From Nemertoderma westbladi (Eukaryota; Animalia; Xenacoelomorpha): DNA of 41,957 nt. The stretch is from positions 1 to 41,957 of the forward strand of contig JAUCBJ010001216.1 of NCBI GenBank assembly GCA_032718475.1, given 5' to 3'. The notes under the pieces are model-generated. The model was not told where the DNA came from. It saw only the letters and a program-made list of their open reading frames with translations, and searched no databases. This document shows positions 1 to 23,421 of this stretch, piece by piece. A program made the position numbers and the translations under genes. The number at the start of each line of letters is the position of its first letter. Within the stretch, counting starts at the first letter, position 1.

Positions 1-1006
1 TAATATAATTATCACTTGATTGTACCGGTACGTAGAGTGGTGAGGGTAATATAATAATCACTTTATCATTGGTACGTAGAGTGGTGAGGGTAATATAATA
101 ATCACTTTATTGTACCGGTACGTAGAGAGGTGAGTGTAATATAATTATTACTTGATTGTACCGGTACGTAGAGTGGTGAGGGTAATATGATAATCACTTT
201 ATTGTACCGGTACGTAGAGTGGTGAGTGTAATATAATTATCACTTTATTGTACCGGTACGTAGAGTGGTGAGTGTAATATAATTATCACTTTATTGTACC
301 GGTACGTAGAGTGGTGAGTGTAATATAATTATCACTTGATTGTACCGGTACGTAGAGTGGTGAGGGTAATATAATTATCACTTTATTGTACCGGTACGTA
401 GAGTGGTGAGGGTAATATAATAATCACTTTATTGTACCGGTACGTAGAGTGGTGAGGGTAATATAATAATCACTTTATTGTACCGGTACGTAGAGTGGTG
501 AGTGTAATATAATTATCACTTGATTGTACCGGTACGTAGAGTGGTGAGGGTAATATAATTATCACTTTATTGTACCGGTACGTAGAGTGGTGAGGGTAAT
601 ATAATAATCACTTTATTGTACCGGTACGTAGAGTGGTGAGGGTAATATAATAATCACTTTATTGTACCGGTACGTAGAGTGGTGAGTGTAATATAATTAT
701 CACTTTATTGTACCGGTACGTAGAGTGGTGAGGGTAATATAATAATCACTTTATTGTACCGGTACGTAGAGTGGTGAGTGTAATATAATTATCACTTTAT
801 TGTACCGGTACGTAGAGTGGTGAGGGTAATATAATAATCACTTTATTGTACCGGTACGTAGAGTGGTGAGTGTCATATAATAATCACTTTATTGTACCGG
901 TACGTAGAGTGGTGAGTGTAATATAATTATCACTTTATTGTACCGGCACGTAGAGTGGTGAGGGTAATATAATAATCAGTTTATTGTACCGGTACGTAGA
1001 GTGGTG
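1..1006 (+). repeat. 44/46-bp tandem satellite, left segment (runs off the window start)
   Basis: Unit GTACGTAGAGTGGTGAG(T/G)GTAATATAATAATCACTTTAT followed by TGTACCG (46 bp) or CATTG (44 bp); head-to-tail with no spacers. Confidence 0.98.
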
Positions 1007-1550
1007 TGTGACGGGATCCGAGAGGATCCCGGTTTATCCGGTGTTGGTTACGTACGCGTCAGCCGCACCGTGTGATGGAAAAGGTGATAAGTTTGTTGTT
1101 CCAGTATTACTGATAAGGTATAATGTAGTTGATAGCATATACAGGTATAATAACAGATAACACGGTAATATACTATGGGTGACGGCGGTGACGGTCCTAA
1201 CTGTCACCGTACTACCTGACTGTACTGACAGACTGAGATAACTGAGTGAAAGCCGCATCGACCGGCAATATATATATCGCACAGTTGGCCATATTGCTAC
1301 TCTACCTAATCGATGCCTTTCCCCCCTCTGATTGGTTGATACCCTTGTTGGCGCCCTTTGGAGTGTTCCCGTTCACTCCTCCTGTTCTCTCTGGGTTAGG
1401 GGTTTGGCCCCTGACCCCTATTGTGTGTTTCTCTCCTTCCCACTCTATTGGGGTGACACGAGGTTGATATTGGTAATCAACCTCGTGCTCCCAATATTGC
1501 CTTATGGCTCACTCTATGGGTTTGTGTTAGCGGAATTGGATAAGCTAACA
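1007..1550 (-). repeat. 3' LTR (544 bp)
   Basis: TGTGACGGGA...AAGCTAACA; differs from 7816-8359 at only 3 positions that I could find, all transitions. Confidence 0.96.
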
Positions 1551-1560
1551 CTCCCCCCCA
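1551..1560 (-). other. Polypurine tract (plus-strand primer)
   Basis: Minus strand reads TGGGGGGGAG directly before the TG of the 3' LTR. Confidence 0.85.
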
Positions 1561-2530
1561 TGCTATCTTCCCGGTGAGAAGATAGCATCCAACTAAAGTG
1601 CGCTACAATTCCGCTGGATCCCGATCTAGCATCGGGTGTGGGGTGGGTATATTTTTTCGGAGTCGGCTTTCCAGGCCGCTCCCTATGGGTATGATGTCAT
1701 TACCCTCTGGCGTCTCGTGTCGGGCCGATCGTGCGCTTCTCGCACACAATTTTTGTTTCCCCAACACTCTCACCACTCTACTCCAACTCTCGCATACTCC
1801 CGGACCTCCTCGTCCCACACTCTTCCTCTCACTTCTCCTCCCCCACACTTGAATTGCGCCCACGCTCTCTTCGCACTCCGCACTATTACTCCATCTCTCC
1901 TTGACTACCTTATCCCTTCTGACGAATCTCACCCCCCCTCCGTGCCGTCGCACTCAGGAAATGTGAAATCGTCTGGCGTCTTGTCCCTAGTGCCATAGTC
2001 AGTTAGCCCCCCAGTCCCAGTAGCTAATTGAGAAAGGTTGTATGACTATAGTACTTACACCACTCTCTCCGCACTCCGCACTATCACCTCTCCACTCTCT
2101 TGTCACTCCCTAAGGCTTTAATCTCTAATGCTACCCCTGTGCTATCATACTATCTACCTACTGCTTACTAACTCTAACTATCTAACTAACTCTGCTAACT
2201 ACTAACTCTTACTACTTCTAGCTCTAACTGAGAGCCTCTAACTTTCTACTGACTCTAACTCTCTACTAAGTCTAACTAACTCCTACTAACTTTCTACTTC
2301 TACTAACTCTACTTGACTCCTCTGAGTCTACCAACTCTGCTAACTAGCTCTACTAACTCTACTCCACTAGCTCTGCTAACTCTACTCCACTAGCTCTGCT
2401 AACTCTACTAACTAGCTCTACTAACTCTACTCCACTCTTCTAACTACGTGGCGCTTGCGGTGCCCACAACCCCTTTACTACTACTTCCTTCTACGTGGCG
2501 CTTGTGGTGCCCACAACCACTCTACTATCT

Positions 2531-2860
2531 GGCACCCTTTGTGCCCTTCTACTACTCAACTACCTCTCTAACACTCTAACCCTACTACTTGGCACCCTAT
2601 GTGCCCTCTCTACTACTCCACTCTCTGGCACCCTATGTGCCCTCTCTACTACCTCTAACACTCTAACTCTACTACCTGGCACCCTATGTGCCCTCTCTAC
2701 TACTCCACTCTCTGGCACCCTATGTGCCCTCTCTACTACCTCTAACACTCTAACTCTACTACCTGGCACCCTATGTGCCCTCTCTACTACTCTACTCTAT
2801 CTCTAACTTTACTACCTGGCACCCTATGTGCCCTCTCTGCTACTCTACTCTATCTCTAAC
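2531..2860. repeat. Internal tandem repeat (about 36+51 = 87-bp period) with a GGCAC-CCTAT-GTGCC mini-hairpin in each subunit
   Basis: Repeated GGCACCCTATGTGCCCTCTCTACTAC; the 29-aa periodicity is visible in ORF 2495-2806. Confidence 0.85.
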
Positions 2861-3460
2861 TTAGTTCCTTTACATCCACTCGCCTGCACGTGACGCTCTG
2901 AATGCCGGCAGAGTGGGTACGTTAATTATGTGAACTACTACTAACTCTTACTAACTCTACTAACTCTCTACTAACTCTACTAACTCCACTAACTATCTAC
3001 TAACTCAACTAACTCTACTACTAACTCAACTAACTCTACTACTAACTCTTTTTGTGCCCGGCACCCCTTGTGCCCGGCACCCACCCTAATTAACATACCC
3101 TGCTCTTACATCAAACACGTCATCACGCCCGTGCCCCACTAAGTTCAGCGCATTCCCTACTAACTCTAACTACGTGGCGCTTACGGTGCCCACAACCTCT
3201 ACTGCTACTTCCATCTACGTGGCGCTTATGGTGCCCACAATTTCAATTTATTTATTTATTTCTCTTCCGTCTATATATATGATTGCACTCATAGTAGAAT
3301 ATTGAATATAAGGTAGAATATTGAATATATATGTGCATACTTTTAGAACTGTAGAGCACAATAATGATTATAAGGGTGTTATGTACACTGGGGGGGAGCA
3401 GTAGCAGTGCTAGTACGTCCCAGGGAGTAGTACAACCCTCTACTGCTCTACTAACACTCC

Positions 3461-3900
3461 TAACTAGCGGTACTACGTACCCTCCTACTACTCTAGCTCT
3501 CTCTACTAGCTAGCGGTACTACGTACCCTCTAACTCTCTAACTAACTAGCGGTACTACGTACCCTCTAACTCTCTAACTAACTAGCGGTACTACGTACCC
3601 TCTAACTCTCCAACTGACTAACGGTACTTACGTACCCTCTAACTCTCTAACCAACTAGCGGTACTACGTACCCTCTAACTCTCTAACTAACTAGCGGTAC
3701 TTACGTACCCTCTAGCTCTCTAACTGACTAACGGTACTTACGTACCCTCTAACTCTCTAACTAACTAGCGGTACTACGTACCCTCTAACTCTAACTAACT
3801 AGCGGTACTTATGTACCCTCTAACTCTCTAACTAACTAGCGGTACTTACGTACCCTCTAACCCTCTAACTAACTATCGGTACTACGTACCACCCTTTAAC
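3461..3900. repeat. Internal ~35-bp tandem repeat, about 12 copies
   Basis: Unit CTAACTAACTAGCGGTACT(T)ACGTACCCTCTAACTCT. Confidence 0.9.
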
Positions 3901-3963: not shown

Positions 3964-6900
3964 TTAAACAATTATTTTATATTTTATGCGTGGGAAGGAC
4001 GTCTCGCCCTCATTCCCACCCCCCTCAGTCCAAAACTTTGGACGACTAAAAACTCTCACGTGCCCCTTCTTCCAGTAGGCACTCTCCTGCTGCCCTCCTA
4101 TACGTCCTCTAACTCTTCGCCACACTCTCTTCGGTGCCACCTTTGCTGGCCTCCCCCTTCGTATGTGCGCTGGCATTAAAGCCCTCGACGACCCCCGCTC
4201 ATCCCTCAGTATACGCGGTGTCTGCCCATGTAATGCCCCCTCGCACTGTGTCAGTCCTGCGTGTGTATGCAACACGCCTCCTTCTACTTTCCCGACTCCT
4301 TTATGTTTGCTCATGGGCTGGCTTCTCTGCCCCTGGTCTAGTCCTTTCACATCCTCTCCCTTTCCAACACTCTCCGGATCTGTGTCCTTTTACCACACAT
4401 CGATGACATAGTCCGTTTGCGTCTGTGTAGGCTACACGATCTCGTTTGGGCAACGCTTGCCAGTACTTGCAACTCCTGGTCTTATGGGTTCCGTCCCAAT
4501 GTAATTGACATTGGAATCCTGGATTATAGCGTTTCCTGTATAGTCCTTCACGTATCGCGCTTAGGTTTATATGTACCGATTTAATGTTTCGATTGTCTAG
4601 ACTCGGCCTACTGGGTATATTGGGATTGTGTTTATTTATGGTGTTATTTTCTTTCTGTCCCTGCCACGGTGTGGCTCTGCTACCAGCTAACTGTGGACTA
4701 GCAGTCCCCTGTATGGCCGCGTGTGGTAGCGACTGTCCGCACGACCTATTCTCGTCCAAGGGGTTCGATGTTCTTGCTCCTATCGGGGTATATTGTCGAT
4801 ATTGTGATGGGGGAATGTCACCTTGTCCCCCCCCCCCCGGCCGGTATGTTTGGTACTGGGGTTGATGTTAATACATTGGGGCCCATACGTCTCCAATAAC
4901 TCCCCCCTCCCCTGGATATATGTTATGTCCCTGTGTATTATAGTCATGCTGCTGTACCGATATAGGCCTACCTACCTCTCGCCTACCTACCGGTATGTAC
5001 TCCGCGACTTCCGGGTTTAATCCCGTCGTTCGCGCTACCCTATCGCCTACTCTATCTCTCCCAGCATGGCCTATAATAGTATGTGCAGTAAGGCCTACAG
5101 TATGTCCTGCAGTCTGCATGTGCCCTTCCGAACCGAAGTTTATTCTTCGCGAATCTCGAATCTCCCCGCAACTACCGTACTCTCGATCGGCAGCTATATC
5201 ACGTCGGGAAGCTTCTCTTCGATCCCCTCTCCTGTTCTCGACTTGATATCGGTACGTCCTGTACCCCTCTCTTGGCGTGCGGTGCGTTTCTCCGGGGCGA
5301 CGGCAATCTCCCGAAGTTCGACCCCACTGACTCCCCAACTCCATCTCTACTATCGACGGTCCGTTATCCGTCCTCGCACTGCTATCGTTCGTGGCGACAC
5401 TTCTTCTACTATCTTCTTTTCTTCTCTTTTCAGTGCAGTATTCCGGCCCGTGAGGTCTCTCGTCGACCCCCCGGTTAAACTCCACTGTTCTTCTTCCCTC
5501 TTCTGATCGGGCTCGACGCTTCGTCTGCCCTCTCGCGACGTCAACCTGCCTCTCTCTGCTCGATCGCACGCCGCTGGGGATACTCGCAATCCCCCTATTA
5601 CTCTCCGTCGCCGGGTGTTGCGGATAACCTAATTCGGCCCGCGCATTATCCGCCGACGCCTGTGGGACACTCTCTGCCCCCCCTCTCTCTCTCTACTAAT
5701 CTCTCGCGGTGGGGTGCCTGTAGCCCCCCCCCCCCCCACCCGCCACTTCTAACTTCACTATCTCTTACTACACTTCTGCGTCCCTCTTGTCGGACATTCT
5801 CTACCCCCCTTCTCTCGCCACTAATCTTTCGTGGTGGGGCTCCTGTAGCCCCCCCCCCACCCGCTACTTCTAACTTCACTACCTCCTACTACACCTCTAC
5901 ACCCCCCTTGTGGGGCATTCTCTGCCCCCCCTCTCTCGCCACTAGTCTTACGTGGTGGGGCGCCCGTAGCCCCCCCCCCCCCCCACCCGCCACATCTAAC
6001 TTCAATATCTCTTACTTCGTCTCTACACCCCTCTCTAGTCGACGCACTGTCTTTACTACGGCTGGGTCTATTCACCCCCGCCTCTCTCTCTACTACTGCG
6101 TGGCCTATCAGGCCCACCTCGGGTTGGCTCAACCCCGCTACCTCCTGCCTACCAACTACGTGGCCTACCAGGCCGCCGTCGGGTTGGCTCAGCCCCGCCA
6201 CCTCCTGTCTACTAACTGCGTGGCCTACCAGGCCGCCGTCTGCTGGGCTATACACGTCTGACACGCTCATATTAATAGCACCATTCCCAATATTATTTGT
6301 TAAATCAATTAAATTATTATTTTCAAAATTTAAATTATCATTCGAATTATTTGAATTATTCTGAGTATTTGAATTAATGTTATTATTTGAGTTTAAATTT
6401 AAATTACTACTACCAGGTAAAATATTATTTCCTGTAATAAAGGGATTAGGGTTATCTACTACGGTACTATTAATATTAACTACTTCTAACGTACTACTAT
6501 TACCCCCCCCCCCCCCCCCCCGCCCGTACGGCTACACCAGTTCTGGTTCTCTCGCCCGGTGCCTGTAAGTGGGGTCTCACTCTCTGACATTTCCAACCGC
6601 GCCAGTTCTAGTCGGCGCTGGTCTAGTTTGGCTTGATATTGCGCAAGCCTCCCTAGCTGAGCACGCAAATCTTCCCGCTCACGCTCTACCTCTATCTCAC
6701 GCTCCCGGTTACCCTGCTCGAACAACTCAACTCTCGCAATTATCTCAAGCCACGGCGCCGGCTCGTCCCCTACTCTCATCTCCCGCTCTATACACTCCTC
6801 GACTCTCTTTCTATACTCCCTCGCCAACTCTCCTAACTTCTCTAAGTATGCGGTTTTACCCCTCAATTGTCTCTCTAACCCATTCTGCTTATTCGCCGCC

Positions 6901-7766
6901 ATTTCTAATATATACGTCAGATTTATCTCCCGCACCCTTCTTTCTTTTGCGGAGGATGTAGCAGACTTATCGGTTGCGACGGATTCCCGCCGCCCCTCCG
7001 TCCTATTAACTTTCCCCCGCCTCCCGGAACTTCCTCCGACCGACGAGACCGAATCCTCGGAGTTAACCTCGGATTCGCCCTCCTCAGGTCTCTTCCAACC
7101 CACTAATTTTACTCCCCGGGCATCGACTAAGTATGGCCCTACGTACACTACGCTAGATTCCATACCCCTACACTCCCATAGTTCAATCAGTTCGTTGGCA
7201 ACCCCCCTCGCTCTCTCCTCGGCTAGTTCTCTCTGCCCAGAACACACTAGGTAATCAAAGTATCTGTTCGACTCACCTAGTCGTCTCCTCAGTCTCACCT
7301 CGTCTATCTTCGCCCCTCCTTTGGCCTCTCTCAGTCGCTCCCTGGTCGCGAGGTAGGCTCGTCGAAGTCGATCAGAAACCCCGACGTCCTCGTCGCCGAC
7401 CTCTCTTCCGTCTCTCCGGGTCCGACGTCGTACCGACGGCCCCACTGTCGCCGTTCCGGTGGACCGTTCGTCGTCCTCGGCCTGTGGCTGGCCGGCGACA
7501 TCGGTACGTCGACCCTCGCTCTGCGTCGACTCGTCTTTCTCCCTTTCGACTCCCGACTCGTCTCTTCCTTCTCGTTGTAGACGACCCCCCACATCTTGGT
7601 TCGCTGGGTCGCTCGTTATCGACGTGGCGTCAACGTACGTCGACGTGGTCGGTGTAGCATCGACCGGCGTTGTGGGTTCGTATCGTCTCGCCGTGGCCTC
7701 GCGGATCGTTAGATCGTCGTCCGGGGTCCGCGGCGGTGTCGTTCCTTTCTCTCGACTCATCTCCAT
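3964..7766 (-). pseudogene. Decayed gag-like polyprotein of the LTR element (coiled-coil N-terminus, zinc knuckles near the C-terminus)
   Basis: ORF 6486-7766 (426 aa, coiled-coil-like) shifts at a poly-G run into a frame continuous with ORF 5821-6270. ORFs 4868-5569 and 4301-4759 are in the same frame, separated by one TAA. The latter contains CQLHWDGTHKTRSC...R...LCHRCVVKGHRSGEC (CX2CX4HX4C), a BEL/Pao-like knuckle arrangement. Confidence 0.7.
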
Positions 7767-7806
7767 CTTTGGTCTGTGTCTGGCAGTTACAGTTCGGCAG
7801 GCCTAG

Positions 7807-7815
7807 AGTTAGGAC
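7807..7815 (-). other. Atypical primer-binding site (GTCCTAACT), complementary to LTR sequence 8003-8011
   Basis: Abuts the 5' LTR, lacks the TGG of a tRNA-3'-end PBS, and has a perfect 9-nt complement within the LTR. Confidence 0.55.
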
Positions 7816-8359
7816 TGTGACGGGATCCGAGAGGATCCCGGTTTATCCGGTGTTGGTTACGTACGCGTCAGCCGCACCGTGTGATGGAAAAGGTGATAAG
7901 TTTGTTGTTCCAGTATTACTGATAAGGTATAATATAGTTGATAGCATATACAGGTATAATAACAGATAACACGGTAATATACTATGGGTGACGGCGGTGA
8001 CGGTCCTAACTGTCACCGTACTACCTGACTGTACTGACAGACTGAGATAACTGAGTGAAAGCCGCATCGACCGGTAATATATATATCGCACAGTTGGCCA
8101 TATTGCTACTCTACCTAATCGATGCCTTTCCCCCCTCTGATTGGTTGATACCCTTGTTGGCGCCCTTCGGAGTGTTCCCGTTCACTCCTCCTGTTCTCTC
8201 TGGGTTAGGGGTTTGGCCCCTGACCCCTATTGTGTGTTTCTCTCCTTCCCACTCTATTGGGGTGACACGAGGTTGATATTGGTAATCAACCTCGTGCTCC
8301 CAATATTGCCTTATGGCTCACTCTATGGGTTTGTGTTAGCGGAATTGGATAAGCTAACA
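7816..8359 (-). repeat. 5' LTR (544 bp)
   Basis: Direct repeat of 1007-1550. Confidence 0.96.
8050..8086 (-). promoter_or_regulatory. Putative LTR core promoter (TATA box and TCAGT initiator)
   Basis: Minus strand TATATATA at about 8078-8085, followed ~33 nt later by a TCAGT Inr-like motif at 8050-8054. Confidence 0.45.
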
Positions 8360-11300
8360 TGGTGAGTGTAATATAATTATCACTTGATTGTACCGGTACG
8401 TAGAGTGGTGAGGGTAATATAATAATCACTTTATTGTACTGGTATGTAGAGTGGTGAGGGTAATATAATAATCACTTTATCATTGGTACGTAGAGTGGTG
8501 AGGGTAATATAATAATCACTTTATTGTACCGGTACGTAGAGTGGTGAGTGTAATATAATAATCACTTTATTGTACCGGTACGTAGAGTGGTGAGGGTAAT
8601 ATAATAATCACTTTATCATTGGTACGTAGAGTGTTGAGTGTAATATAATAATAACTTTATCATTGGTACGTAGAGTGGTGAGGGTAATATAATAATCACT
8701 TTATCATTGGTACGTAGAGTGGTGAGGGTAATATAATAATCACTTTATTGTATCGGTACGTAGAGAGGTGAGTGTAATATAATAATAACTTTATCATTGG
8801 TACGTAGAGTGGTGAGGGTAATATAATAATCACTTTATCATTGCTACGTAGAGTGGTGAGGGTAATATAATAATCACGTTATTGTATCGGTACGTAGAGT
8901 GGTGAGGGTAATATAATAATCACTTTATTGTACCGGTACGTAGAGTGGTGAGTGTAATATAATAATCACTTTATTGTACCGGCACGTAGAGTGGTGAGGG
9001 TAATATAATAATCAGTTTATTGTACCGGTACGTAGAGTGATGAGTGTAATATAATTATCACTTGATTGTACCGGTACGTAGAGTGGTGAGTGTAATATAA
9101 TAATCACTTTATTGTACCGGTACGTAGAGTGGTGAGTGTAATATAATTATCACTTTATTGTACCGGCACGTAGAGTGGTGAGGGTAATATAATAATCAGT
9201 TTATTGTACCGGTACGTAGAGTGGTGAGTGTAATATAATTATCACTTGATTGTACCGGTACGTAGAGTGGTGAGTGTAATATAATTATCACTTTATTGTA
9301 CCGGTACGTAGAGTGGTGAGGGTAATATAATAATCACTTTATTGTACCGGTACGTAGAGTGGTGAGGGTAATATAATAATCACTTTATTGTACCGGTACG
9401 TAGAGTGGTGAGGGTAATATAATAATCACTTTATCATTGGTACGTAGAGTGGTGAGGGTAATATAATAATCACTTTATTGTACCGGTACGTAGAGTGGTG
9501 AGTGTAATATAATAATCACTTTATTGTACCGGTACGTAGAGTGGTGAGGGTAATATAATAATCACTTTATCATTGGTACGTAGAGAGGTGAGTGTAATAT
9601 AATAATCACTTTATTGTACCGGTACGTAGAGTGGTGAGGGTAATATAATAATCACTTTATCATTGGTACGTAGAGTGGTGAGGGTAATATAATAATCACT
9701 TTATCATTGGTACGTAGAGTGGTGAGGGTAATATAATAATCACTTTATTGTACCGGTACGTAGAGTGGTGAGGGTAATATAATAATCACTTTATTGTACC
9801 GGTACGTAGAGTGGTGAGTGTAATATAATAATCACTTTATTGTACCGGTACGTAGAGTGGTGAGTGTAATATAATAATCACTTTATTGTACCGGTACGTA
9901 GAGTGGTGAGTGTAATATAATTATCACTTGATTGTACCGGTACGTAGAGTGGTGAGTGTAATATAATTATCACTTTATTGTACCGGCACGTAGAGTGGTG
10001 AGGGTAATATAATAATCAGTTTATTGTACCGGTACGTAGAGTGGTGAGTGTAATATAATAATCACTTTATTGTACCGGTACGTAGAGTGGTGAGTGTAAT
10101 ATAATAATCACTTTATTGTACCGGTACGTAGAGTGGTGAGTGTAATATAATTATCACTTGATTGTACCGGTACGTAGAGTGGTGAGTGTAATATAATTAT
10201 CACTTTATTGTACCGGCACGTAGAGTGGTGAGGGTAATATAATAATCAGTTTATTGTACCGGTACGTAGAGTGGTGAGTGTAATATAATAATCACTTTAT
10301 TGTACCGGTACGTAGAGTGGTGAGGGTAATATAATAATCACTTTATTGTACCGGTACGTAGAGTGGTGAGTGTAATATAATAATCACTTTATTGTACCGG
10401 TACGTAGAGTGGTGAGTGTAATATAATAATCACTTTATTGTACCGGTACGTAGAGTGGTGAGTGTAATATAATTATCACTTGATTGTACCGGTACGTAGA
10501 GTGGTGAGTGTAATATAATTATCACTTGATTGTACCGGTACGTAGAGTGGTGAGGGTAATATGATAATCACTTTATTGTACCGGTACGTAGAGTGGTGAG
10601 GGTAATATAATAATCACTTTATCATTGGTACGTAGAGTGGTGAGTGTAATATAATAATCACTTGATTGTACCGGTACGTAGAGTGGTGAGGGTAATATGA
10701 TAATCACTTTATTGTACCGGTACGTAGAGTGGTGAGGGTAATATAATAATCACTTTATCATTGGTACGTAGAGTGGTGAGTGTAATATAATAATCACTTT
10801 ATCATTGGTACGTAGAGTGGTGAGTGTAATATAATAATCACTTTATCATTGGTACGTAGAGTGGTGAGGGTAATATAATAATCACTTTATTGTACCGGCA
10901 CGTAGAGTGGTGAGGGTAATATAATAATCACTTTATCATTGGTACGTAGAGTGGTGAGGGTAATATAATAATCACTTTATTGTACCGGCACGTAGAGTGG
11001 TGAGGGTAATATAATAATCAGTTTATTGTACCGGTACGTAGAATGGTGAGTGTAATATAATTATCACTTGATTGTACCGGTACGTAGAGTGGTGAGTGTA
11101 ATATAATAATCACTTTATTGTACCGGTACGTAGAGTGGTGAGTGTAATATAATTATCACTTTATTGTACCGGCACGTAGAGTGGTGAGGGTAATATAATA
11201 ATCAGTTTATTGTACCGGTACGTAGAGTGGTGAGTGTAATATAATTATCACTTGATTGTACCGGTACGTAGAGTGGTGAGGGTAATATAATAATCACTTT

Positions 11301-14300
11301 ATTGTACCGGTACGTAGAGTGGTGAGGGTAATATAATAATCAGTTTATTGTACCGGTACGTAGAGTGGTGAGTGTAATATAATTATCACTTGATTGTACC
11401 GGTACGTAGAGTGGTGAGGGTAATATAATAATCACTTTATTGTACCAGTACGTAGAGTGGTGAGGGTAATATAATAATCACTTTATTGTACCGGTACGTA
11501 GAGTGGTGAGGGTAATATAATAATCAGTTTATTGTACCGGTATGTAGAGTGGTGAGTGTAATATAATTATCACTTGATTGTACCGGTACGTAGAGTGGTG
11601 AGGGTAATATAATAATCACTTTATTGTACCGGTACGTAGAGTGGTGAGGGTAATATAATAATCAGTTTATTGTACCGGTACGTAGAGTGGTGAGTGTAAT
11701 ATAATAATCACTTTATCATTGGTACGTAGAGTGGTGAGGGTAATATAATAATCACTTTATTGTACCGGTACGTAGAGTGATGAGTGTAATATAATAATCA
11801 CTTTATCATTGGTACGTAGAGTGGTGAGTGTACTATAATAATCACTTTATTGTACCGGTACGTAGAGTGGTGAGTGTAATATAATAATAACTTTATCATT
11901 GGTACGTAGAGTGGTGAGGGTAATATAATAATCACTTTATCATTGGTACGTCGAGTGGTGAGTGTAATATAATAATCACTTTATCATTGGTACGTAGAGT
12001 GGTAAGGGTAATATAATAATCACTTTATCATTGGTACGTAGAGTGGTGAGTGTAATATAATAATCACTTTATCATTGGTACGTAGAGAGGTGAGTGTAAT
12101 ATAATAATCACTTTATCATTGGTACGTAGAGTGGTGAGTGTAATATAATAATCACTTGATTGTACCGGTACGTCGAGTGGTGAGGGTAATATAATAATCG
12201 CTTTATCATTGGTACGTCGAGTGGTGAGTGTAATATAATAATCACTTTATTGTACCGGTACGTAGAGTGGTGAGTGTAATATAATAATCACTTTATTGTA
12301 CCGGTACGTAGAGTGGTGAGTGTAATATAATAATCACTTTATCATTGGTACGTAGAGTGGTGAGTGTAATATAATAATCACTTGATTGTACCGGTACGTA
12401 GAGTGGTGAGTGTAATATAATAATCACTTTATCATTGGTACGTCGAGTGGTGAGGGTAATATAATAATCGCTTTATCATTGGTACGTCGAGTGGTGAGTG
12501 TAATATAATAATCACTTTATTGTACCGGTACGTAGAGTGGTGAGTGTAATATAATAATCACTTGATTGTACCGGTACGTCGAGTGGTGAGGGTAATATAA
12601 TAATCGCTTTATCATTGGTACGTCGAGTGGTGAGTGTAATATAATAATCACTTTATTGTACCGGTACGTAGAGTGGTGAGTGTAATATAATAATCACTTT
12701 ATTGTACCGGTACGTAGAGTGGTGAGTGTAATATAATAATCGCTTTATCATTGGTACGTCGAGTGGTGAGTGTAATATAATAATCACTTTATTGTACCGG
12801 TACGTAGAGTGGTGAGGGTAATATAATAATCACTTTATTGTACCGGTACGTAGAGTGATGAGTGTAATATAATAATCACTTTATCATTGGTACATAGAGT
12901 GGTGAGTGTAATATAATAATCACTTTATTGTACCGGTACGTAGAGTGGTGAGTGTAATATAATAATAACTTTATCATTGGTACGTAGAGTGGTGAGGGTA
13001 ATATAATAATCACTTTATTGTACCGGTACGTAGAGTGGTGAGTGTAATATAATAATCACTTTATTGTACCGGTACGTAGAGTGGTGAGTGTAATATAATA
13101 ATCACTTTATCATTGGTACGTAGAGTGGTGAGGGTAATATAATAATCACTTTATTGTACCGGTACGTAGAGTGATGAGTGTAATATAATAATCACTTTAT
13201 CATTGGTACGTAGAGTGGTGAGTGTAATATAATAATCACTTTATTGTACCGGTACGTAGAGTGGTGAGTGTAATATAATAATAACTTTATCATTGGTACG
13301 TCGAGTGGTGAGGGTAATATAATAATCACTTTATTGTACCGGTACGTAGAGTGGTGAGTGTAATATAATAATCACTTTATTGTACCGGTACGTCGAGTGG
13401 TGAGTGTAATATAATAATCACTTTATTGTACCGGTACGTAGAGTGGTGAGTGTAATATAATAATCACTTTATCATTGGTACGTAGAGTGGTGAGTGTAAT
13501 ATAATAATCACATTATCATTGGTACGTAGAGTGGTGAGGGTAATATAATAATCACTTTATCATTGGTACGTCGAGTGGTGAGTGTAATATAATAATCACT
13601 TTATCATTGGTACGTAGAGTGGTGAGTGTAATATAATAATCACTTTATTGTACCGGTACGTAGAGTGGTGAGTGTAATATAATAATCACTTTATCATTGG
13701 TACGTCGAGTGGTGAGTGTAATATAATAATCACTTTATCATTGGTACGTCGAGTGGTGAGGGTAATATAATAATCACTTTATCATTGGTACGTAGAGTGG
13801 TGAGGGTAATATAATAATCACTTTATCATTGGTACGTCGAGTGGTGAGGGTAATATAATAATCACTTTATCATTGGTACGTCGAGTGGTGAGGGTAATAT
13901 AATAATCACTTTATCATTGGTACGTAGAGTGGTGAGTGTAATATAATAATCACTTTATTGTACCGGTACGTAGAGAGGTGAGTGTAATATAGTAATCACT
14001 TTATCATTGGTACGTAGAGTGGTGAGGGTAATATAATAATCACTTTATTGTACCGGTACGTAGAGTGGTGAGTGTAATATAATAATCACTTTATCATTGG
14101 TACGTAGAGTGGTGAGGGTAATATAATTATCACTTGATTGTACCGGTACGTAGAGAGGTGAGTGTAATATAATAATCACTTTATTGTACCGGTACGTAGA
14201 GTGGTGAGGGTAATATAATAATCACTTTATCATTGGTACGTCGAGTGGTGAGTGTAATATAATAATCACTTTATCATTGGTACGTCGAGTGGTGAGGGTA

Positions 14301-17300
14301 ATATAATAATCACTTTATCATTGGTACGTAGAGTGGTGAGTGTAATATAATAATCACTTTATTGTACCGGTACGTAGAGTGGTGAGGGTAATATAATAAT
14401 CACTTTATTGTACCGGTACGTAGAGAGGTGAGTGTAATATAATAATCACTTTATTGTACCGGTACGTAGAGTGGTGAGGGTAATATAATAATCACTTTAT
14501 TGTACCGGTACGTAGAGAGGTGAGTGTAATATAATAATCACTTTATTGTACCGGTACGTAGAGTGGTGAGTGTAATATAATAATCAGTTTATTGTACCGG
14601 TACGTAGAGTGGTGAGTGTAATATAATAATCACTTTATTGTACCGGTACGTAGAGAGGTGAGTGTAATATAATAATCACTTTATTGTACCGGTACGTAGA
14701 GTGGTGAGGGTAATATAATAATCACTTTATTGTACCGGTACGTAGAGAGGTGAGTGTAATATAATAATCACTTTATTGTACCGGTACGTAGAGTGGTGAG
14801 GGTAATATAATAATCACTTTATTGTACCGGTACGTAGAGAGGTGAGTGTAATATAATAATCACTTTATTGTACCGGTACGTAGAGTGGTGAGGGTAATAT
14901 AATAATCACTTTATTGTACCGGTACGTAGAGAGGTGAGTGTAATATAATAATCACTTTATTGTACCGGTACGTAGAGTGGTGAGTGTAATATAATAATCA
15001 CTTTATCATTGGTACGTAGAGTGGTGAGGGTAATATAATAATCACTTTATTGTACCGGTACGTAGAGTGATGAGTGTAATATAATAATCACTTTATCATT
15101 GGTACGTAGAGTGGTGAGTGTACTATAATAATCACTTTATTGTACCGGTACGTAGAGTGGTGAGTGTAATATAATAATAACTTTATCATTGGTACGTAGA
15201 GTGGTGAGGGTAATATAATAATCACTTTATCATTGGTACGTCGAGTGGTGAGTGTAATATAATAATCACTTTATCATTGGTACGTAGAGTGGTAAGGGTA
15301 ATATAATAATCACTTTATCATTGGTACGTAGAGTGGTGAGTGTAATATAATAATCACTTTATCATTGGTACGTAGAGAGGTGAGTGTAATATAATAATCA
15401 CTTTATCATTGGTACGTAGAGTGGTGAGTGTAATATAATAATCACTTGATTGTACCGGTACGTCGAGTGGTGAGGGTAATATAATAATCGCTTTATCATT
15501 GGTACGTCGAGTGGTGAGTGTAATATAATAATCACTTTATTGTACCGGTACGTAGAGTGGTGAGTGTAATATAATAATCACTTTATTGTACCGGTACGTA
15601 GAGTGGTGAGTGTAATATAATAATCACTTTATCATTGGTACGTAGAGTGGTGAGTGTAATATAATAATCACTTGATTGTACCGGTACGTAGAGTGGTGAG
15701 TGTAATATAATAATCACTTTATCATTGGTACGTCGAGTGGTGAGGGTAATATAATAATCGCTTTATCATTGGTACGTCGAGTGGTGAGTGTAATATAATA
15801 ATCACTTTATTGTACCGGTACGTAGAGTGGTGAGTGTAATATAATAATCACTTGATTGTACCGGTACGTCGAGTGGTGAGGGTAATATAATAATCGCTTT
15901 ATCATTGGTACGTCGAGTGGTGAGTGTAATATAATAATCACTTTATTGTACCGGTACGTAGAGTGGTGAGTGTAATATAATAATCACTTTATTGTACCGG
16001 TACGTAGAGTGGTGAGTGTAATATAATAATCGCTTTATCATTGGTACGTCGAGTGGTGAGTGTAATATAATAATCACTTTATTGTACCGGTACGTAGAGT
16101 GGTGAGGGTAATATAATAATCACTTTATTGTACCGGTACGTAGAGTGATGAGTGTAATATAATAATCACTTTATCATTGGTACGTAGAGTGGTGAGTGTA
16201 ATATAATAATCACTTTATTGTACCGGTACGTAGAGTGGTGAGTGTAATATAATAATAACTTTATCATTGGTACGTAGAGTGGTGAGGGTAATATAATAAT
16301 CACTTTATTGTACCGGTACGTAGAGTGGTGAGTGTAATATAATAATCACTTTATTGTACCGGTACGTAGAGTGGTGAGTGTAATATAATAATCACTTTAT
16401 CATTGGTACGTAGAGTGGTGAGGGTAATATAATAATCACTTTATTGTACCGGTACGTAGAGTGGTGAGTGTAATATAATAATCACTTTATTGTACCGGTA
16501 CGTAGAGTGGTGAGTGTAATATAATAATAACTTTATCATTGGTACGTAGAGTGGTGAGGGTAATATAATAATCACTTTATTGTACCGGTACGTAGAGTGG
16601 TGAGTGTAATATAATAATCACTTTATTGTACCGGTACGTAGAGTGATGAGTGTAATATAATAATCACTTTATCATTGGTACGTAGAGTGGTGAGTGTAAT
16701 ATAATAATCACTTTATTGTACCGGTACGTAGAGTGGTGAGTGTAATATAATAATAACTTTATCATTGGTACGTAGAGTGGTGAGGGTAATATAATAATCA
16801 CTTTATTGTACCGGTACGTAGAGTGGTGAGTGTAATATAATAATCACTTTATTGTACCGGTACGTCGAGTGGTGAGTGTAATATAATAATCACTTTATCA
16901 TTGGTACGTAGAGTGGTGAGTGTAATATAATAATCACTTTATCATTGGTACGTAGAGTGGTGAGGGTAATATAATAATCACTTTATTGTACCGGTACGTA
17001 GAGTGGTGAGTGTAATATAATAATCACTTTATCATTGGTACGTCGAGTGGTGAGTGTAATATAATAATTACTTTATCATTGGTACGTCGAGTGGTGAGGG
17101 TAATATAATAATCACTTTATTGTACCGGTACGTAGAGTGGTGAGTGTAATATAATAATCACTTTATTGTACCGGTACGTCGAGTGGTGAGTGTAATATAA
17201 TAATCACTTTATTGTACCGGTACGTAGAGTGGTGAGTGTAATATAATAATCACTTTATCATTGGTACGTCGAGTGGTGAGTGTAATATAATAATCACTTT

Positions 17301-20300
17301 ATCATTGGTACGTCGAGTGGTGAGGGTAATATAATAATCGCTTTATCATTGGTACGTCGAGTGGTGAGGGTAATATAATAATCACTTTATCATTGGTACG
17401 TCGAGTGGTGAGGGTAATATAATAATCACTTTATCATTGGTACGTCGAGTGGTGAGTGTAATATAATAATCACTTTATCATTGGTACGTCGAGTGGTGAG
17501 TGTAATATAATAATCACTTTATCATTGGTACGTCGAGTGGTGAGGGTAATATAATAATCACTTTATCATTGGTACGTCGAGTGGTGAGGGTAATATAATA
17601 ATCACTTTATTGTACCGGTACGTAGAGTGGTGAGTGTAATATAATAATCACTTTATCATTGGTACGTCGAGTGGTGAGTGTAATATAATAATCGCTTTAT
17701 CATTGGTACGTCGAGTGGTGAGGGTAATATAATAATCACTTTATCATTGGTACGTAGAGTGGTGAGTGTAATATAATAATCACTTTATTGTACCGGTACG
17801 TAGAGAGGTGAGTGTAATATAATAATCACTTTATCATTGGTACGTCGAGTGGTGAGTGTAATATAATAATCACTTTATCATTGGTACGTCGAGTGGTGAG
17901 GGTAATATAATAATCACTTTATCATTGGTACGTCGAGTGGTGAGGGTAATATAATAATCACTTTATTGTACCGGTACGTAGAGTGGTGAGTGTAATATAA
18001 TAATCACTTTATTGTACCGGTACGTAGAGTGGTGAGTGTAATATAATAATCACTTTATCATTGGTACGTAGAGTGGTGAGTGTAATATAATAATCACTTT
18101 ATCATTGGTACGTCGAGTGGTGAGGGTAATATAATAATCACTTTATCATTGGTACGTCGAGTGGTGAGTGTAATATAATAATCACTTTATCATTGGTACG
18201 TCGAGTGGTGAGGGTAATATAATAATCACTTTATCATTGGTACGTCGAGTGGTGAGGGTAATATAATAATCACTTTATTGTACCGGTACGTAGAGAGGTG
18301 AGTGTAATATAATAATCACTTTATCATTGGTACGTCGAGTGGTGAGTGTAATATAATAATCACTTTATCATTGGTACGTCGAGTGGTGAGGGTAATAAAT
18401 AATCACTTTATCATTGGTACGTAGAGTGGTGAGTGTAATATAATAATCACTTTATTGTACCGGTACGTAGAGAGGTGAGTGTAATATAATAATCACTTTA
18501 TTGTACCGGTACGTAGAGTGGTGAGTGTAATATAATAATCACTTTATTGTACCGGTACGTAGAGAGGTGAGTGTAATATAATAATCACTTTATCATTGGT
18601 ACGTCGAGTGGTGAGTGTAATATAATAATCACTTTATCATTGGTACGTCGAGTGGTGAGGGTAATAAATAATCACTTTATCATTGGTACGTAGAGTGGTG
18701 AGTGTAATATAATAATCACTTTATTGTACCGGTACGTAGAGAGGTGAGTGTAATATAATAATCACTTTATTGTACCGGTACGTAGAGTGGTGAGTGTAAT
18801 ATAATAATCACTTTATCATTGGTACGTAGAGTGGTGAGTGTAATATAATAATCACATTATCATTGGTACGTAGAGTGGTGAGGGTAATATAATAATCACT
18901 TTATCATTGGTACGTCGAGTGGTGAGTGTAATATAATAATCACTTTATCATTGGTACGTAGAGTGGTGAGTGTAATATAATAATCACTTTATCATTGGTA
19001 CGTAGAGTGGTGAGGGTAATATAATAATCACTTTATTGTACCGGTACGTAGAGTGATGAGTGTAATATAATAATCACTTTATCATTGGTACGTAGAGTGG
19101 TGAGTGTAATATAATAATCACTTTATTGTACCGGTACGTAGAGTGGTGAGTGTAATATAATAATAACTTTATCATTGGTACGTAGAGTGGTGAGGGTAAT
19201 ATAATAATCACTTTATTGTACCGGTACGTAGAGTGGTGAGTGTAATATAATAATCACTTTATTGTACCGGTACGTCGAGTGGTGAGTGTAATATAATAAT
19301 CACTTTATTGTACCGGTACGTAGAGTGGTGAGTGTAATATAATAATAACTTTATCATTGGTACGTAGAGTGGTGAGGGTAATATAATAATCACTTTATTG
19401 TACCGGTACGTAGAGTGGTGAGTGTAATATAATAATCACTTTATTGTACCGGTACGTCGAGTGGTGAGTGTAATATAATAATCACTTTATTGTACCGGTA
19501 CGTAGAGTGGTGAGTGTAATATAATAATCACTTTATCATTGGTACGTCGAGTGGTGAGTGTAATATAATAATCACTTTATCATTGGTACGTCGAGTGGTG
19601 AGGGTAATATAATAATCACTTTATTGTACCGGTACGTAGAGTGGTGAGTGTAATATAATAATCACTTTATTGTACCGGTACGTCGAGTGGTGAGTGTAAT
19701 ATAATAATCACTTTATTGTACCGGTACGTAGAGTGGTGAGTGTAATATAATAATCACTTTATCATTGGTACGTAGAGTGGTGAGTGTAATATAATAATCA
19801 CATTATCATTGGTACGTAGAGTGGTGAGGGTAATATAATAATCACTTTATCATTGGTACGTCGAGTGGTGAGTGTAATATAATAATCACTTTATCATTGG
19901 TACGTAGAGTGGTGAGTGTAATATAATAATCACTTTATTGTACCGGTACGTAGAGTGGTGAGTGTAATATAATAATCACTTTATCATTGGTACGTCGAGT
20001 GGTGAGTGTAATATAATAATCACTTTATCATTGGTACGTCGAGTGGTGAGGGTAATATAATAATCACTTTATCATTGGTACGTAGAGTGGTGAGGGTAAT
20101 ATAATAATCACTTTATCATTGGTACGTCGAGTGGTGAGGGTAATATAATAATCACTTTATCATTGGTACGTCGAGTGGTGAGGGTAATATAATAATCACT
20201 TTATCATTGGTACGTAGAGTGGTGAGTGTAATATAATAATCACTTTATTGTACCGGTACGTAGAGAGGTGAGTGTAATATAGTAATCACTTTATCATTGG

Positions 20301-21515
20301 TACGTAGAGTGGTGAGGGTAATATAATAATCACTTTATTGTACCGGTACGTAGAGTGGTGAGTGTAATATAATAATCACTTTATCATTGGTACGTAGAGT
20401 GGTGAGGGTAATATAATTATCACTTGATTGTACCGGTACGTAGAGAGGTGAGTGTAATATAATAATCACTTTATTGTACCGGTACGTAGAGTGGTGAGGG
20501 TAATATAATAATCACTTTATCATTGGTACGTCGAGTGGTGAGTGTAATATAATAATCACTTTATCATTGGTACGTCGAGTGGTGAGTGTAATATAATAAT
20601 CACTTTATTGTATCGGTACGTAGAGTGGTGAGTGTAATATAATAATCACTTTATTGTACCGGTACGTAGAGTGGTGAGGGTAATATAATAATCACTTTAT
20701 CATTGGTACGTCGAGTGGTGAGTGTAATATAATAATCACTTTATTGTATCGGTACGTAGAGAGGTGAGTGTAATATAATAATCACTTTATTGTACCGGTA
20801 CGTAGAGTGGTGAGGGTAATATAATAATCACTTTATCATTGGTACGTCGAGTGGTGAGTGTAATATAATAATCACTTTATCATTGGTACGTCGAGTGGTG
20901 AGGGTAATATAATAATCACTTTATTGTACCGGTACGTAGAGTGGTGAGGGTAATATAATAATCACTTTATCATTGGTACGTAGAGTGGTGAGTGTAATAT
21001 AATAATCACTTTATTGTACCGGTACGTAGAGTGGTGAGGGTAATATAATAATCACTTTATTGTACCGGTACGTAGAGAGGTGAGTGTAATATAATAATCA
21101 CTTTATTGTACCGGTACGTAGAGTGGTGAGGGTAATATAATAATCACTTTATTGTACCGGTACGTAGAGAGGTGAGTGTAATATAATAATCACTTTATTG
21201 TACCGGTACGTAGAGTGGTGAGTGTAATATAATAATCAGTTTATTGTACCGGTACGTAGAGTGGTGAGTGTAATATAATAATCACTTTATTGTACCGGTA
21301 CGTAGAGAGGTGAGTGTAATATAATAATCACTTTATTGTACCGGTACGTAGAGTGGTGAGGGTAATATAATAATCACTTTATTGTACCGGTACGTAGAGA
21401 GGTGAGTGTAATATAATAATCACTTTATTGTACCGGTACGTAGAGTGGTGAGGGTAATATAATAATCACTTTATTGTACCGGTACGTAGAGAGGTGAGTG
21501 TAATATAATAATCAC
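8360..21515 (+). repeat. 44/46-bp tandem satellite, middle segment (about 290 copies)
   Basis: Same unit, with mixed 44- and 46-mers and diagnostic point variants. Confidence 0.98.
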
Positions 21516-23421
21516 AATTCAATATTCAATTCAATATAAATTTAATCCTTCTTGATGTATGAAATTCATTGTATTGCACGCACCCAAATACCATAAAATG
21601 TGGATATATATTGTAAATAGTTAAGAAAAAAGTTGGTTGGGTGTCAGGGAACGATGTAAGGACACGGAGGCTAGCTAATAGCAGGGCTAGTAGACGCTAG
21701 CCACCGGGGGGGGGGGGTGGGGGTGAGAGAGGAGGGGGTAGGGGGGGGGGGGGGGGGGGGGAGGGAGGTTACATCTGAATACTCATAATTTAGGGTAGTT
21801 TTTATTAGTTTCGAAATTTATTAATTATATTTTTGAACCGTGGGACTAATCTTGTAAATAGTTACTTTTGTATGTAATAAGTAAGGTAACGTCAGCGGGA
21901 AATCTGTAGGCGACGGATGTACAATGCGGATGGAATTAAGATTTTTGCAATTTGAAATAAAATTAAAATTGGGCAAAGACGCAGGCCAGTGATATGGTTT
22001 GTATGGGAGTGAAATTGGTTATAATTTAGAAATTAGATGAAGTTTGTAATTTTTTGAAAATGTAGGTTTGGATTTTTTGTTACGCATATCACAAGGGATG
22101 GTACTCCAAATAGATGGGCCTTGAAAACACATGGATTTTTGGGAAGAGGTTAGACGAAATAGCGGTAAACAAAAGTTTCCTAAAGATGAAAAGCGGGTGG
22201 CGTAATTGTGTATGGATGAAGTTTTAGTAAATAAAGAACCGAGATCAGAGGTGGGGCTTATAATGTGGTGGTGGATATCATGCATGAAAAGGCCGGCCTG
22301 GTGTTTATACAGTAAGTTTAAAGGTAGAATTCGTAGTGATTTGTATAGAGGCGCAGAGGACGATTGTGAGTGACTGAAAGTAATGCATCTGATAATTTTG
22401 TTTATTTTAACTCTAAGTGGATGAAGGGTGGTGGAATGAGTACTTCCCCAAAGTAGAATACCGTACTGTATGTAAGGGTGAATTAGGGTGAAATAAAGTT
22501 GACGTAGAATATTTAAAGGGAAGATATAGCGCAATTTGTAGAAAATTCCAGACATTTTAGATATTTTTTTAATTATGAAGTTTACATGAGGCTTCCAATT
22601 TAGTTTGCTATCCACCCAGATGCCAAGGATTTTGGAGTTTGTTGAAAATTTAATTTGATTATTTTTAATTTCGCAGCATGGAATCTGGGTGGATAAGTTT
22701 GTTATTGTATTAGAGAATATAGTGTATTCAGTTTTCTTTAGGTTTAGAGATAGTCGATTAGCGTTCAGCCAATCAGATAGTTTGTTTAGTTCAAAGTTTG
22801 TTTGATCGATGAGTTGATGGATTTCTGGGTTAGAATGGAGGAGGGTGGTGTCGTCAGCGAAAAGGGTGGATAATAGATTGGTAGCGTTAGGTAGGTCATT
22901 AATGTAGAGGAGAAAGAGAATAGGTGAGATTACCGAACCTTGAGGAACACCACAGAGGAGGGGTTCAATAGCAGATAGTTTGTTACTGATACATACTTGT
23001 TGAGTTCTGCCCGTTAGAAAACTGGATAAGAGTTGATTGGGGATTCCTCGAATGCCGTAACAGTCTAGTTTGCGTAGTAAGATCGGGTGGTCAATGGTGT
23101 CGAAGGCTTTTTTTAGGTCAATATATATCGCACATGTTGAATTTTTGTCATCGAGAGAACGGTGAATTTTTTCAATTATTGATAGAAGAGCGTGGGAGGT
23201 TGAGGTTCTAGGGCGGAAGCCATACTGGGAAGTTGTTAGAACTGAATACTTAGTTAAATACGATTGCAGTTGCGAGTTTATTATTTGTTCGAATATTTTT
23301 GTTAGTACTGGAAGAAGAGATATTGGCCTGTAATTATTGGAGTCTGTTGGGTCATTGCCTTTGTAAATAGGAATAATTTTAGCTGGTTTGAGTGCACTGG
23401 GGAAGAAGCCTTGGGTAATAG
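21516..23421 (-). mobile_element. 5'-truncated non-LTR retrotransposon, CR1/L2 group
   Basis: RT motifs on the minus strand; ATTGA/TTGAA-type 3' tail at 21516-21535; ATCAC duplicated at 21511-21515 and 23422-23426. Confidence 0.92.

What the first reader, a model, noticed from the sequence alone, without database searches (positions are those of the whole stretch)
7807..8054. Candidate tRNA-independent self-priming system: PBS pairs with a hairpin loop in the element's own LTR
Seen: directly after the 5' LTR the RNA reads GUCCUAACU, with no TGG. Its exact complement AGUUAGGAC (8003-8011) lies in the LTR, displayed in the 10-nt loop of a perfect 7-bp stem CGGUGAC/GUCACCG (7995-8018); pairing extends to 11 of 12 nt. 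A second perfect 8-bp stem CGGGATCC/GGATCCCG sits at the U5 end (7821-7840). A fixed 9-mer is expected by chance in 544 nt with probability ~544/4^9, about 0.2%. Known: self-priming is described for Tf1/sushi-group Ty3/gypsy elements, where the extreme 5' end of the mRNA is the primer. Inference: here the putative TSS (~8052) is about 40 nt upstream of the anti-PBS, the primer sequence is loop-presented, and the gag knuckles look BEL/Pao-like, so this may be a distinct self-priming variant.
Basis: partly seen in the sequence, partly recalled or inferred. Interest (0 to 1): 0.78.

Follow-up and report, generated by a model that had tools for sequence, protein, structure and literature searches.

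The report
Likely self-primer inside retrotransposon end repeat
A recently inserted, enzyme-less jumping gene of what is likely an animal has no standard tRNA landing site, and the site instead pairs exactly with nine bases of the element's own end repeat, so it likely starts its DNA copy with a cut piece of its own RNA, a trick proven so far only in a yeast element.

Summary
A young, pol-less LTR element (minus strand, 8359-1007; 544-bp LTRs, 3 differences; 5-bp target duplication) has no TGG primer site. The first 9 nt after the 5' LTR pair exactly with LTR 8011-8003 (89 of 20,000 shuffles), and 11 of 12 pair on extension. In contigs of four runs the anti-PBS and PBS showed no substitution at 2% or more, while the spacer between them varies; no compensatory change was seen. 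'Loop presentation' is predicted only while the RNA is being made: in the full leader the anti-PBS pairs with U5, and the priming duplex lies about 3 kcal/mol higher. Best reading: Tf1-like self-priming from an internal primer about 41 nt past the predicted start (0.55). A real rival appeared: the PBS matches 14 nt of a natural tRNA 3' end lacking its final CA, but only in phage tRNA-His genes; host tRNAs were unavailable. BEL/Pao membership is unproven (no pol, no homologues). No RNA data. The scan noted similar PBS-LTR pairings in BEL/Pao elements of other genomes; I did not check those.

The parts
7816..8359 (-). 5' LTR, 544 bp, TG...CA
   Evidence: 98.7% blastn match to 3' LTR, 3 differences
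1007..1550 (-). 3' LTR, 544 bp
1002..1006 (+). target-site duplication TGGTG (left copy; right copy 8360-8364), inside a 44-46-bp satellite
8360..8364 (+). target-site duplication TGGTG (right copy)
7807..7815 (-). primer-binding site without TGG, flush with the LTR's CA; complementary to 8011-8003
7802..7815 (-). 14 nt complementary to positions 61-74 of a phage tRNA-His type; also holds the predicted PBS hairpin 7813-7810/7805-7802
8003..8011 (-). anti-PBS, candidate self-primer; its 3' end would be C8003
   Evidence: no substitution listed in four runs
7995..8018 (-). 7-bp hairpin around the anti-PBS; predicted only in the nascent transcript
7987..8018 (-). R block predicted to form a long irregular helix with U5 7878-7848 in the full leader
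7848..7878 (-). U5 arm, predicted partner of the R block
7893..7982 (-). variable spacer between R block and U5 arm, skipped or replaced in related copies
   Evidence: low cover, 14 of 16 substitution rows, 6 joints
7821..7840 (-). 8-bp U5 hairpin; family indels fall at 7828-7832, its loop and loop edge
8078..8085 (-). TATA-like motif
   Evidence: motif only
8049..8054 (-). initiator-like TCAGTT; predicted start near 8052
   Evidence: INR consensus TCAKTY from PMC3601003 passages; not mapped
1551..1559 (-). polypurine tract GGGGGGGAG flush with the 3' LTR
6489..7766 (-). first gag-like open frame (ATG at 7766), mostly long helices, ends just after a 19-G run
   Evidence: no homologue
4304..4867 (-). 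open frame with two zinc-knuckle-like motifs (CX2HX4HX4C at 4510, CX2CX4HX4C at 4408)
   Evidence: zf-CCHC_3 E=0.045, below cut-off
2166..3890 (-). non-coding tandem repeats in place of pol; 14 copies of TAGAGTTAG, complementary to PBS nt 4-12

Best explanation
This is a young LTR retrotransposon copy with a gag-like region and no detectable pol, whose PBS pairs exactly with nine bases of its own LTR, and it likely primes reverse transcription with that LTR segment instead of a tRNA, using a partner's reverse transcriptase that was not found. Shown: the element's ends, the missing TGG, the flush 9-nt complement, and its constancy in family contigs. Predicted by folding: the R hairpin forms first, is displaced by a long R-U5 helix once U5 is made, and an alternative state about 3 kcal/mol higher pairs the anti-PBS with the PBS, stacked on a 13-bp R-U5 helix with the U5 hairpin beside it. 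Inferred from Tf1: Gag or RNA dimerisation favours that state, RNase H cuts after C8003, and the freed 3' end copies 7816-8002 as minus strong-stop DNA (187 nt). The primer would be the first ~50 nt of the RNA, not its first 11.
For: No TGG for 51 nt. Exact 9-nt complement at offset 0: 89 of 20,000 shuffles; 15 of 19 on extension, 5 of 5,000. PBS and PPT both abut the LTRs without a gap, so both primers would give TG...CA ends directly (inference). The match lies 74 nt downstream of the TATA motif. In contigs of 4 runs (at most 3 samples) no substitution at 2% or more was listed in 7984-8019 or 7789-7859; 14 of 16 substitution rows fall in 7895-7962, and 6 joints skip from 7869-7916 to 7983/7987. 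The common change at 7860 and the indels at 7828-7832 and 7854-7855 fall at predicted unpaired places. The R arm pairs with U5 at -18.7 kcal/mol, matched by 25 of 1,000 shuffled arms. Tf1 uses a central primer-PBS duplex with flanking duplexes and an RNase H cut (passages of PMC7175516; bioRxiv 10.1101/2022.12.06.519325).
Against: No covariation: both partners are invariant, which says nothing about pairing, and the R block's constancy is equally explained by its pairing with U5. A one-base insertion after 8007 occurs in one contig in each of three runs (437/7754, 281/3351, 406/9879 of summed depth) with no matching PBS change among the 12 of 16 indel rows shown. The PBS duplex has probability 0.005-0.009 at 37 C from a start at 8052, and less at 25 and 15 C. 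The match is 9 nt, under the 10-nt threshold used in PMC6317226. The Tf1 leader-U5 duplex has no significant equivalent (253 of 1,000 shuffles as good). A 14-nt tRNA 3'-end match pairs more strongly (-25.1 versus -12.7 kcal/mol). No canonical poly(A) signal was found in the LTR to show that R extends past 8002. No RT in the element.
Confidence: 0.55

Rival explanations
1. The primer is a host tRNA or tRNA-like RNA lacking its last two bases (CA). The PBS is complementary to tRNA positions 61-74, and the LTR's 10-nt loop is a captured copy of that primer end or a guard strand.
For: 9 of 57 viral loci holding the 14-mer have it at positions 61-74 of ARAGORN-called tRNA-His genes (6 distinct sequences, two types). 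The match covers T-stem, acceptor strand, discriminator and first C. The LTR loop equals positions 66-75, one base more than the PBS needs. Chance: such tRNA ends fill at most 2.6% of the possible 10-mer middles, and the GT-N10-GG shape occurs at 46 of 6,252 internal positions. BEL elements can use tRNA-Tyr (PMC4580426 passages); recalled, not checked: animal tRNA-Tyr ends in the same last bases, and Drosophila mdg3 was proposed to use a 3'-shortened tRNA-Leu.
Against: The matching tRNAs sit in tRNA clusters of viral contigs with encoded CCA, which points to phages; 8 of 9 are near-identical, so it is about one event in a very large search space. Recalled, not tested: no standard animal cytosolic tRNA has this end. 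The match stops at position 61, short of the usual 59. The UAGG that mimics the T-stem is explained by the PBS's own hairpin (P 0.83-0.94). 0 of 9 prokaryote genome hits to the 16-mer lay in a tRNA. This rival needs a second explanation for the LTR complement.
Confidence: 0.15
2. The pairing is a regulatory or packaging switch (hiding the PBS, dimerisation, 5'-3' pairing with the 3' repeats), and priming uses something else.
For: Three mutually exclusive predicted states for the same 9 nt; PBS itself in a hairpin; PBS nt 4-12 also pair with 14 repeat copies at 2176-3793.
Against: The match ends exactly at the LTR edge, where a primer's 3' end must lie; the 3' repeat copies lack the three bases needed to reach that edge; no other primer is evident.
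Confidence: 0.12
3. Chance match in a hairpin-rich, repeat-rich element, or the fossil of a short inverted duplication of the U5/PBS junction with no function.
For: 0.45-1% shuffle rate for a feature picked from many windows; five perfect hairpins of 7 bp or more in this LTR; the TAGAGTTAG motif is common in the element; 15 of 19 pairing looks like an old inverted copy; no covariation.
Against: Offset 0, position downstream of the promoter motifs, enclosure in a stem, and constancy beside a freely varying spacer would all have to coincide; the element has recently moved (3 LTR differences) and needs some primer.
Confidence: 0.15
4. The primer is made by splicing an intron out of the LTR, as other notes of this scan proposed for BEL/Pao elements elsewhere.
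For: The anti-PBS overlaps a CAG acceptor-like site at 8012-8010; the best GT/GC-AG junction gives a 10-nt complement.
Against: All 5 junctions reaching 9 nt or more use donors at 8114-8309, upstream of the TATA motif; the gain is one base at most.
Confidence: 0.03

Closest known systems
Tf1/Tf2 (S. pombe), Tj1 (S. japonicus), Tosmo/Tcry and the Tf1/sushi group of Ty3/gypsy chromoviruses
   Same: PBS without TGG, complementary to the element's own 5' LTR; a helix between LTR sequence just downstream of the primer and U5 beside the central duplex (passages of PMC7175516, PMC4600332, bioRxiv 10.1101/2022.12.06.519325).
   Different: There the primer is the first 11 nt of the RNA; here it is 9 nt about 41 nt past a predicted start, boxed in a hairpin and then masked by U5. 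No significant leader-U5 duplex, no pol or chromodomain.
Plant TAR (Houba, Osr-1) Ty1/copia and Tcn1 clade, predicted self-primers
   Same: Self-priming inferred from PBS-LTR complementarity alone, outside or beside Tf1/sushi (PMC6317226 passages).
   Different: Those calls needed 10 nt or more; this has 9 perfect. Different superfamily features and host.
BEL/Pao (Belpaoviridae), e.g. Achilles
   Same: TG...CA LTRs, two knuckle-like motifs in gag; 5-bp duplication; the 20-residue knuckle spacing resembles BEL gag (recalled).
   Different: Achilles has a tRNA-Tyr PBS and a third Pao-type Cys-His motif (PMC4580426 passages); neither is seen here; no DUF1759 or pol hit.
Non-autonomous LTR elements with internal tandem repeats (Culex cqUNK group)
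   Same: Near-identical LTRs, PPT, target duplication, tandem repeats instead of pol, unclassifiable by RT (PMC3286476 passages).
   Different: Those have tRNA-type PBSs and lack coding sequence; this keeps a gag-like region and has a self-complementary PBS.
Troyka/Kuafuortervirus LTR elements
   Same: Animal LTR elements outside the three classic groups.
   Different: Troyka has CG...CG ends and 3-bp duplications (PMC12440569 part 1 of 5); this has TG...CA and 5 bp, so it is not Troyka.

Membership tests
LTR retrotransposon (non-autonomous) | direct LTRs with TG...CA, target duplication, PPT | tested here: met
LTR retrotransposon (autonomous) | protease, RT/RNase H, integrase | tested here: not met
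   no Pfam hit in 5 internal frames or 6 sub-frames; no RT or integrase motif in the three minus-strand frames
Tf1/sushi self-priming group | PBS complementary to own 5' LTR, no TGG | tested here: met
   (9 nt perfect)
Tf1/sushi self-priming group | primer at the extreme 5' end of the RNA | not testable with these tools
   no RNA holder listed; motifs place the start about 41 nt upstream
Tf1/sushi self-priming group | three-duplex 'pretzel' | tested here: inconclusive
   central duplex and an R-U5 helix predicted; U5-end duplex weak; leader-U5 duplex not above shuffles
Tf1/sushi self-priming group | chromovirus RT/integrase with chromodomain | not testable with these tools
   element has no pol; partner not found
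BEL/Pao | RT-RNase H-integrase phylogeny | not testable with these tools
   no pol; no genome held
BEL/Pao | two CX2CX4HX4C knuckles plus a third Pao-type Cys-His motif | tested here: inconclusive
   one exact knuckle, one with His for the second Cys, third motif not seen in three frames; motif definition from PMC4580426
BEL/Pao | DUF1759 gag domain | tested here: not met
   no hit in the element's frames, while a separate fragment at 28024-28503 hit it at E=0.00023; gag is read in pieces, which lowers sensitivity
tRNA-primed LTR elements | PBS starts with TGG within 0-5 nt of the LTR | tested here: not met
tRNA-primed LTR elements | PBS complementary to a host tRNA or fragment | not testable with these tools
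   no host tRNA set; none in the window; 14-nt match to phage tRNA-His only
Troyka | CG...CG ends and 3-bp duplication | tested here: not met

The most novel reading that the evidence does not exclude
A BEL/Pao-related lineage has replaced the host tRNA with a tRNA-3'-end mimic carried inside its own LTR (the loop reads as tRNA positions 66-75). A folding switch controls it: hairpin during transcription, masked by U5 in the mature RNA, released onto the PBS in the particle. This would be an independent origin of self-priming with an internal, regulated primer, and a snapshot of how tRNA priming turns into self-priming.
Probability: 0.2. Interest if true: 0.8.

Novelty: new variant of a known kind. 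Interest (0 to 1): 0.55.

Why it matters
Self-primed reverse transcription has been shown by experiment for Tf1 and is predicted for its relatives and for plant TAR elements. An animal element with an internal primer would show that the primer need not be the RNA's first bases, that the cut can be made tens of bases inside the transcript, and that the mechanism arose again. It would explain LTR families with no tRNA site and put them out of reach of tRNA-fragment silencing at the PBS (inference). The family is young and abundant, so the test (5' RACE, strong-stop mapping) is simple.

Tried and rejected
No genome held, so no copy census, partner RT or host tRNA set. Homologue searches for the gag pieces found nothing: knuckle piece, first frame against 1.84 billion representatives, Atlas best 0.90 unnamed and 0.79, PDB best E=0.38 to a nucleocapsid; single-sequence model pLDDT 69, pTM 0.45, long helices, no viral fold match at E<=0.001. 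The DUF1759 fragment fetched no BEL proteins, so no BEL gag profile could be built. The U5-hairpin pattern gave 4 metagenome loci of 67-74% GC sharing only the pattern, and 0 viral loci. Rfam: one hit at E=3, ignored. D-arm idea: none of the 9 tRNA overlaps lay in a D-arm; two papers holding the 8-mer had it in unrelated primers; an animal tRNA D-arm match remains untested. Splice-junction primer rejected. Troyka rejected. Contig depths were not used as copy numbers. Edge caveat: variants at 7788, 8020 and 8023 seen were not listed, so constancy within about 10 nt of that stretch's ends is not shown; one search showed 40 of 109 substitution rows. Print check: searches 'self-priming + LTR retrotransposon + primer binding site' (12 papers), 'BEL + Pao + self-priming' (5), 'Belpaoviridae + primer binding site' (6), 'self-primed + retrotransposon + BEL + LTR' (8) and a five-term BEL clade search (0) showed no title or read passage reporting self-priming in BEL/Pao; the library lacks most subscription papers, including the original Tf1 and sushi papers, which I did not read. 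The mdg3 search did not confirm the recalled truncated-tRNA paper. No supplements were read.

Full report
Anatomy. The finding lies at the 5' end of a 7,353-bp LTR element on the minus strand, inserted in a 44-46-bp satellite. Its LTRs (8359-7816 and 1550-1007) are 544 bp, end TG...CA, differ at 3 positions (all transitions, K2P 0.0055) and are flanked by a TGGTG duplication. A purine tract abuts the 3' LTR. The inside holds gag-like open frames broken near long G runs (6521, 5984, 5858, 5737, 4838; possibly assembly errors), two knuckle-like motifs, then tandem repeats. No protease, RT or integrase was found, so it is non-autonomous. The host is inferred to be an animal from the satellite, a LINE and a DUF1759 fragment nearby; no genome is held.

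The observation. All described features are there. The first 9 nt after the LTR are the exact complement of 8011-8003; 11 of 12 pair when extended into the LTR end, 15 of 19 over a wider window. Shuffles give 89 of 20,000 for the 9-mer, 215 of 20,000 with a 0-3-nt offset, 7 and 5 of 5,000 for the extended matches. In the element itself 9 of 6,257 internal 9-mers have an LTR complement. The 9-mer sits in the loop of a perfect 7-bp stem, rare in shuffles (15 of 25,800 windows) but less so in this hairpin-rich LTR (8 windows). TATA and initiator motifs put the start near 8052 (consensus from PMC3601003 passages); this is unmapped.

The leader folds better than shuffles (z -4.2 and -3.5). The small hairpin is favoured only while the transcript grows (P 0.56-1.0 for 3' ends from 7990 to 7860) and drops to 0.005 or less from 7840 on. 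In the full leader the block 8018-7987 pairs with U5 7878-7848, masking the anti-PBS, and the PBS forms its own small hairpin. Forcing the anti-PBS:PBS duplex costs 3.1-3.4 kcal/mol of ensemble energy and stacks it on a 13-bp R-U5 helix beside the U5 hairpin; forcing the small hairpin costs 4.2-6.2. ViennaRNA cannot score loop-PBS kissing or pairing between two RNAs, so those remain open.

Relatives. Contigs of four runs (X1, X2, X3, X5; at most 3 samples, 3 studies) were laid on the region. No substitution at 2% or more was listed in 7984-8019 or 7789-7859; 14 of 16 substitution rows fall in the spacer, and 6 joints skip from 7869-7916 to 7983 or 7987, keeping both arms. The one common U5 change (7860) and the indels at 7828-7832 and 7854-7855 fall at predicted unpaired places. 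This supports a constrained R-U5 structure. It does not prove PBS pairing: nothing covaries, and a one-base insertion in the anti-PBS (4-8% of summed depth in three runs) has no listed PBS counterpart (12 of 16 indel rows shown). Only close relatives can be laid, and short contigs cannot link a PBS to its LTR. No RNA run was listed. No relative was found in metagenome or viral collections.

The tRNA rival. Host tRNAs were not available. A scan with the 14-nt PBS complement gave 57 viral loci, 9 of them at positions 61-74 of tRNA-His genes, i.e. a tRNA 3' end without its last CA; 0 of 9 prokaryote genome loci with the 16-mer lay in a tRNA. The nine are 6 distinct sequences of two types. From a sample of 130 loci (152 ends, 146 distinct; about 27,000 estimated) such ends fill at most 2.6% of the possible middles, so the match is itself a roughly 1-in-100 event. 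I weigh it below self-priming because these appear to be phage tRNAs, because the PBS hairpin explains the bases that mimic the T-stem, and because it leaves the LTR complement unexplained. It does show that the PBS has the shape of a tRNA end and that the LTR loop equals tRNA positions 66-75, which fits descent from a tRNA-primed ancestor (inference; BEL Achilles uses tRNA-Tyr, PMC4580426 passages).

Mechanism. Most likely (0.55) the RNA is cut after C8003 while paired to the PBS and the 5' piece primes DNA synthesis at A7816, with RT, RNase H and integrase borrowed from a partner. Shown: sequence, chance level, family constancy. Predicted: the three folds. Inferred from Tf1 (PMC7175516 passages; bioRxiv 10.1101/2022.12.06.519325 passages; PMC4600332 passages): the cut and priming. 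A splice-made primer was tested and rejected: every helpful donor lies upstream of the TATA motif.

Comparison. It works like Tf1 if the reading is right, but it is not shown to belong to the Tf1/sushi group: no pol, a probably internal primer, an incomplete pretzel. BEL/Pao membership rests on recalled knuckle spacing only; the third Pao motif and DUF1759 were not seen and no homologue was found. It is not Troyka (PMC12440569 part 1 of 5; PMC11673190 part 1 of 3). Self-priming is also predicted for plant TAR and Tcn1 elements (PMC6317226 passages), and Skipper has an unexplained non-tRNA site (PMC5006619 passages), so a further origin is plausible rather than startling. Passages of PMC5443660, PMC3587641 and PMC3286476 were also read. 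My five searches found no report of self-priming in BEL/Pao in this library. Other notes of this scan describe PBS-LTR pairing in BEL/Pao elements of other genomes; they are unchecked and were used as leads only.

Verdict. Real feature, new variant of a known kind, mechanism likely but unproven. Interest 0.55; 0.8 if the regulated internal tRNA-end mimic is confirmed (probability 0.2).

Noticed in passing
window 2176-3793 (minus strand): 14 exact copies of TAGAGTTAG in the element's 3' repeats are complementary to PBS nt 4-12, allowing 5'-3' pairing or decoying of the PBS.
   Followed up: partly
window 8359-8206 (U3): U3 holds three more perfect hairpins: 7 bp at the very LTR start (8359-8334), 12 bp (8296-8266), 7 bp (8229-8206); a further hairpin appears to end at the start of the PPT (about 1599-1560).
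   Followed up: no
L014, L019, L020:641-716, L021, L024, L029, L033, L040, L043: tRNA-His genes in viral tRNA clusters with C1:G72 and A73, unlike the usual bacterial C73 (usual state recalled).
   Followed up: partly
window 31735-36884 (+): LINE-like element: frame with a Ulp1/Peptidase_C48 hit (E=0.0002), a coiled-coil frame, and a 1,074-codon frame with endonuclease and RT.
   Followed up: no
window 28024-29250 (-): DUF1759 (BEL gag-like) fragment at E=0.00023 next to 66-bp tandem repeats and a 342-bp inverted-repeat element at 29248-29589.
   Followed up: partly
window 26551-26651 (+): Probable exon of an ABC transporter (Walker A-like reading by eye) directly after the satellite array, so satellite and LTR element may lie in an intron.
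   Followed up: no
window 1-1006 and 8360-26505: About 19 kb of 44-46-bp satellite with higher-order alternation of unit lengths and strong G skew.
   Followed up: no
window 26960-27527: 568-bp element with 59-nt inverted ends, MITE-like.
   Followed up: no
window 39677-40654 (-): 326-codon open frame with no Pfam hit.
   Followed up: no
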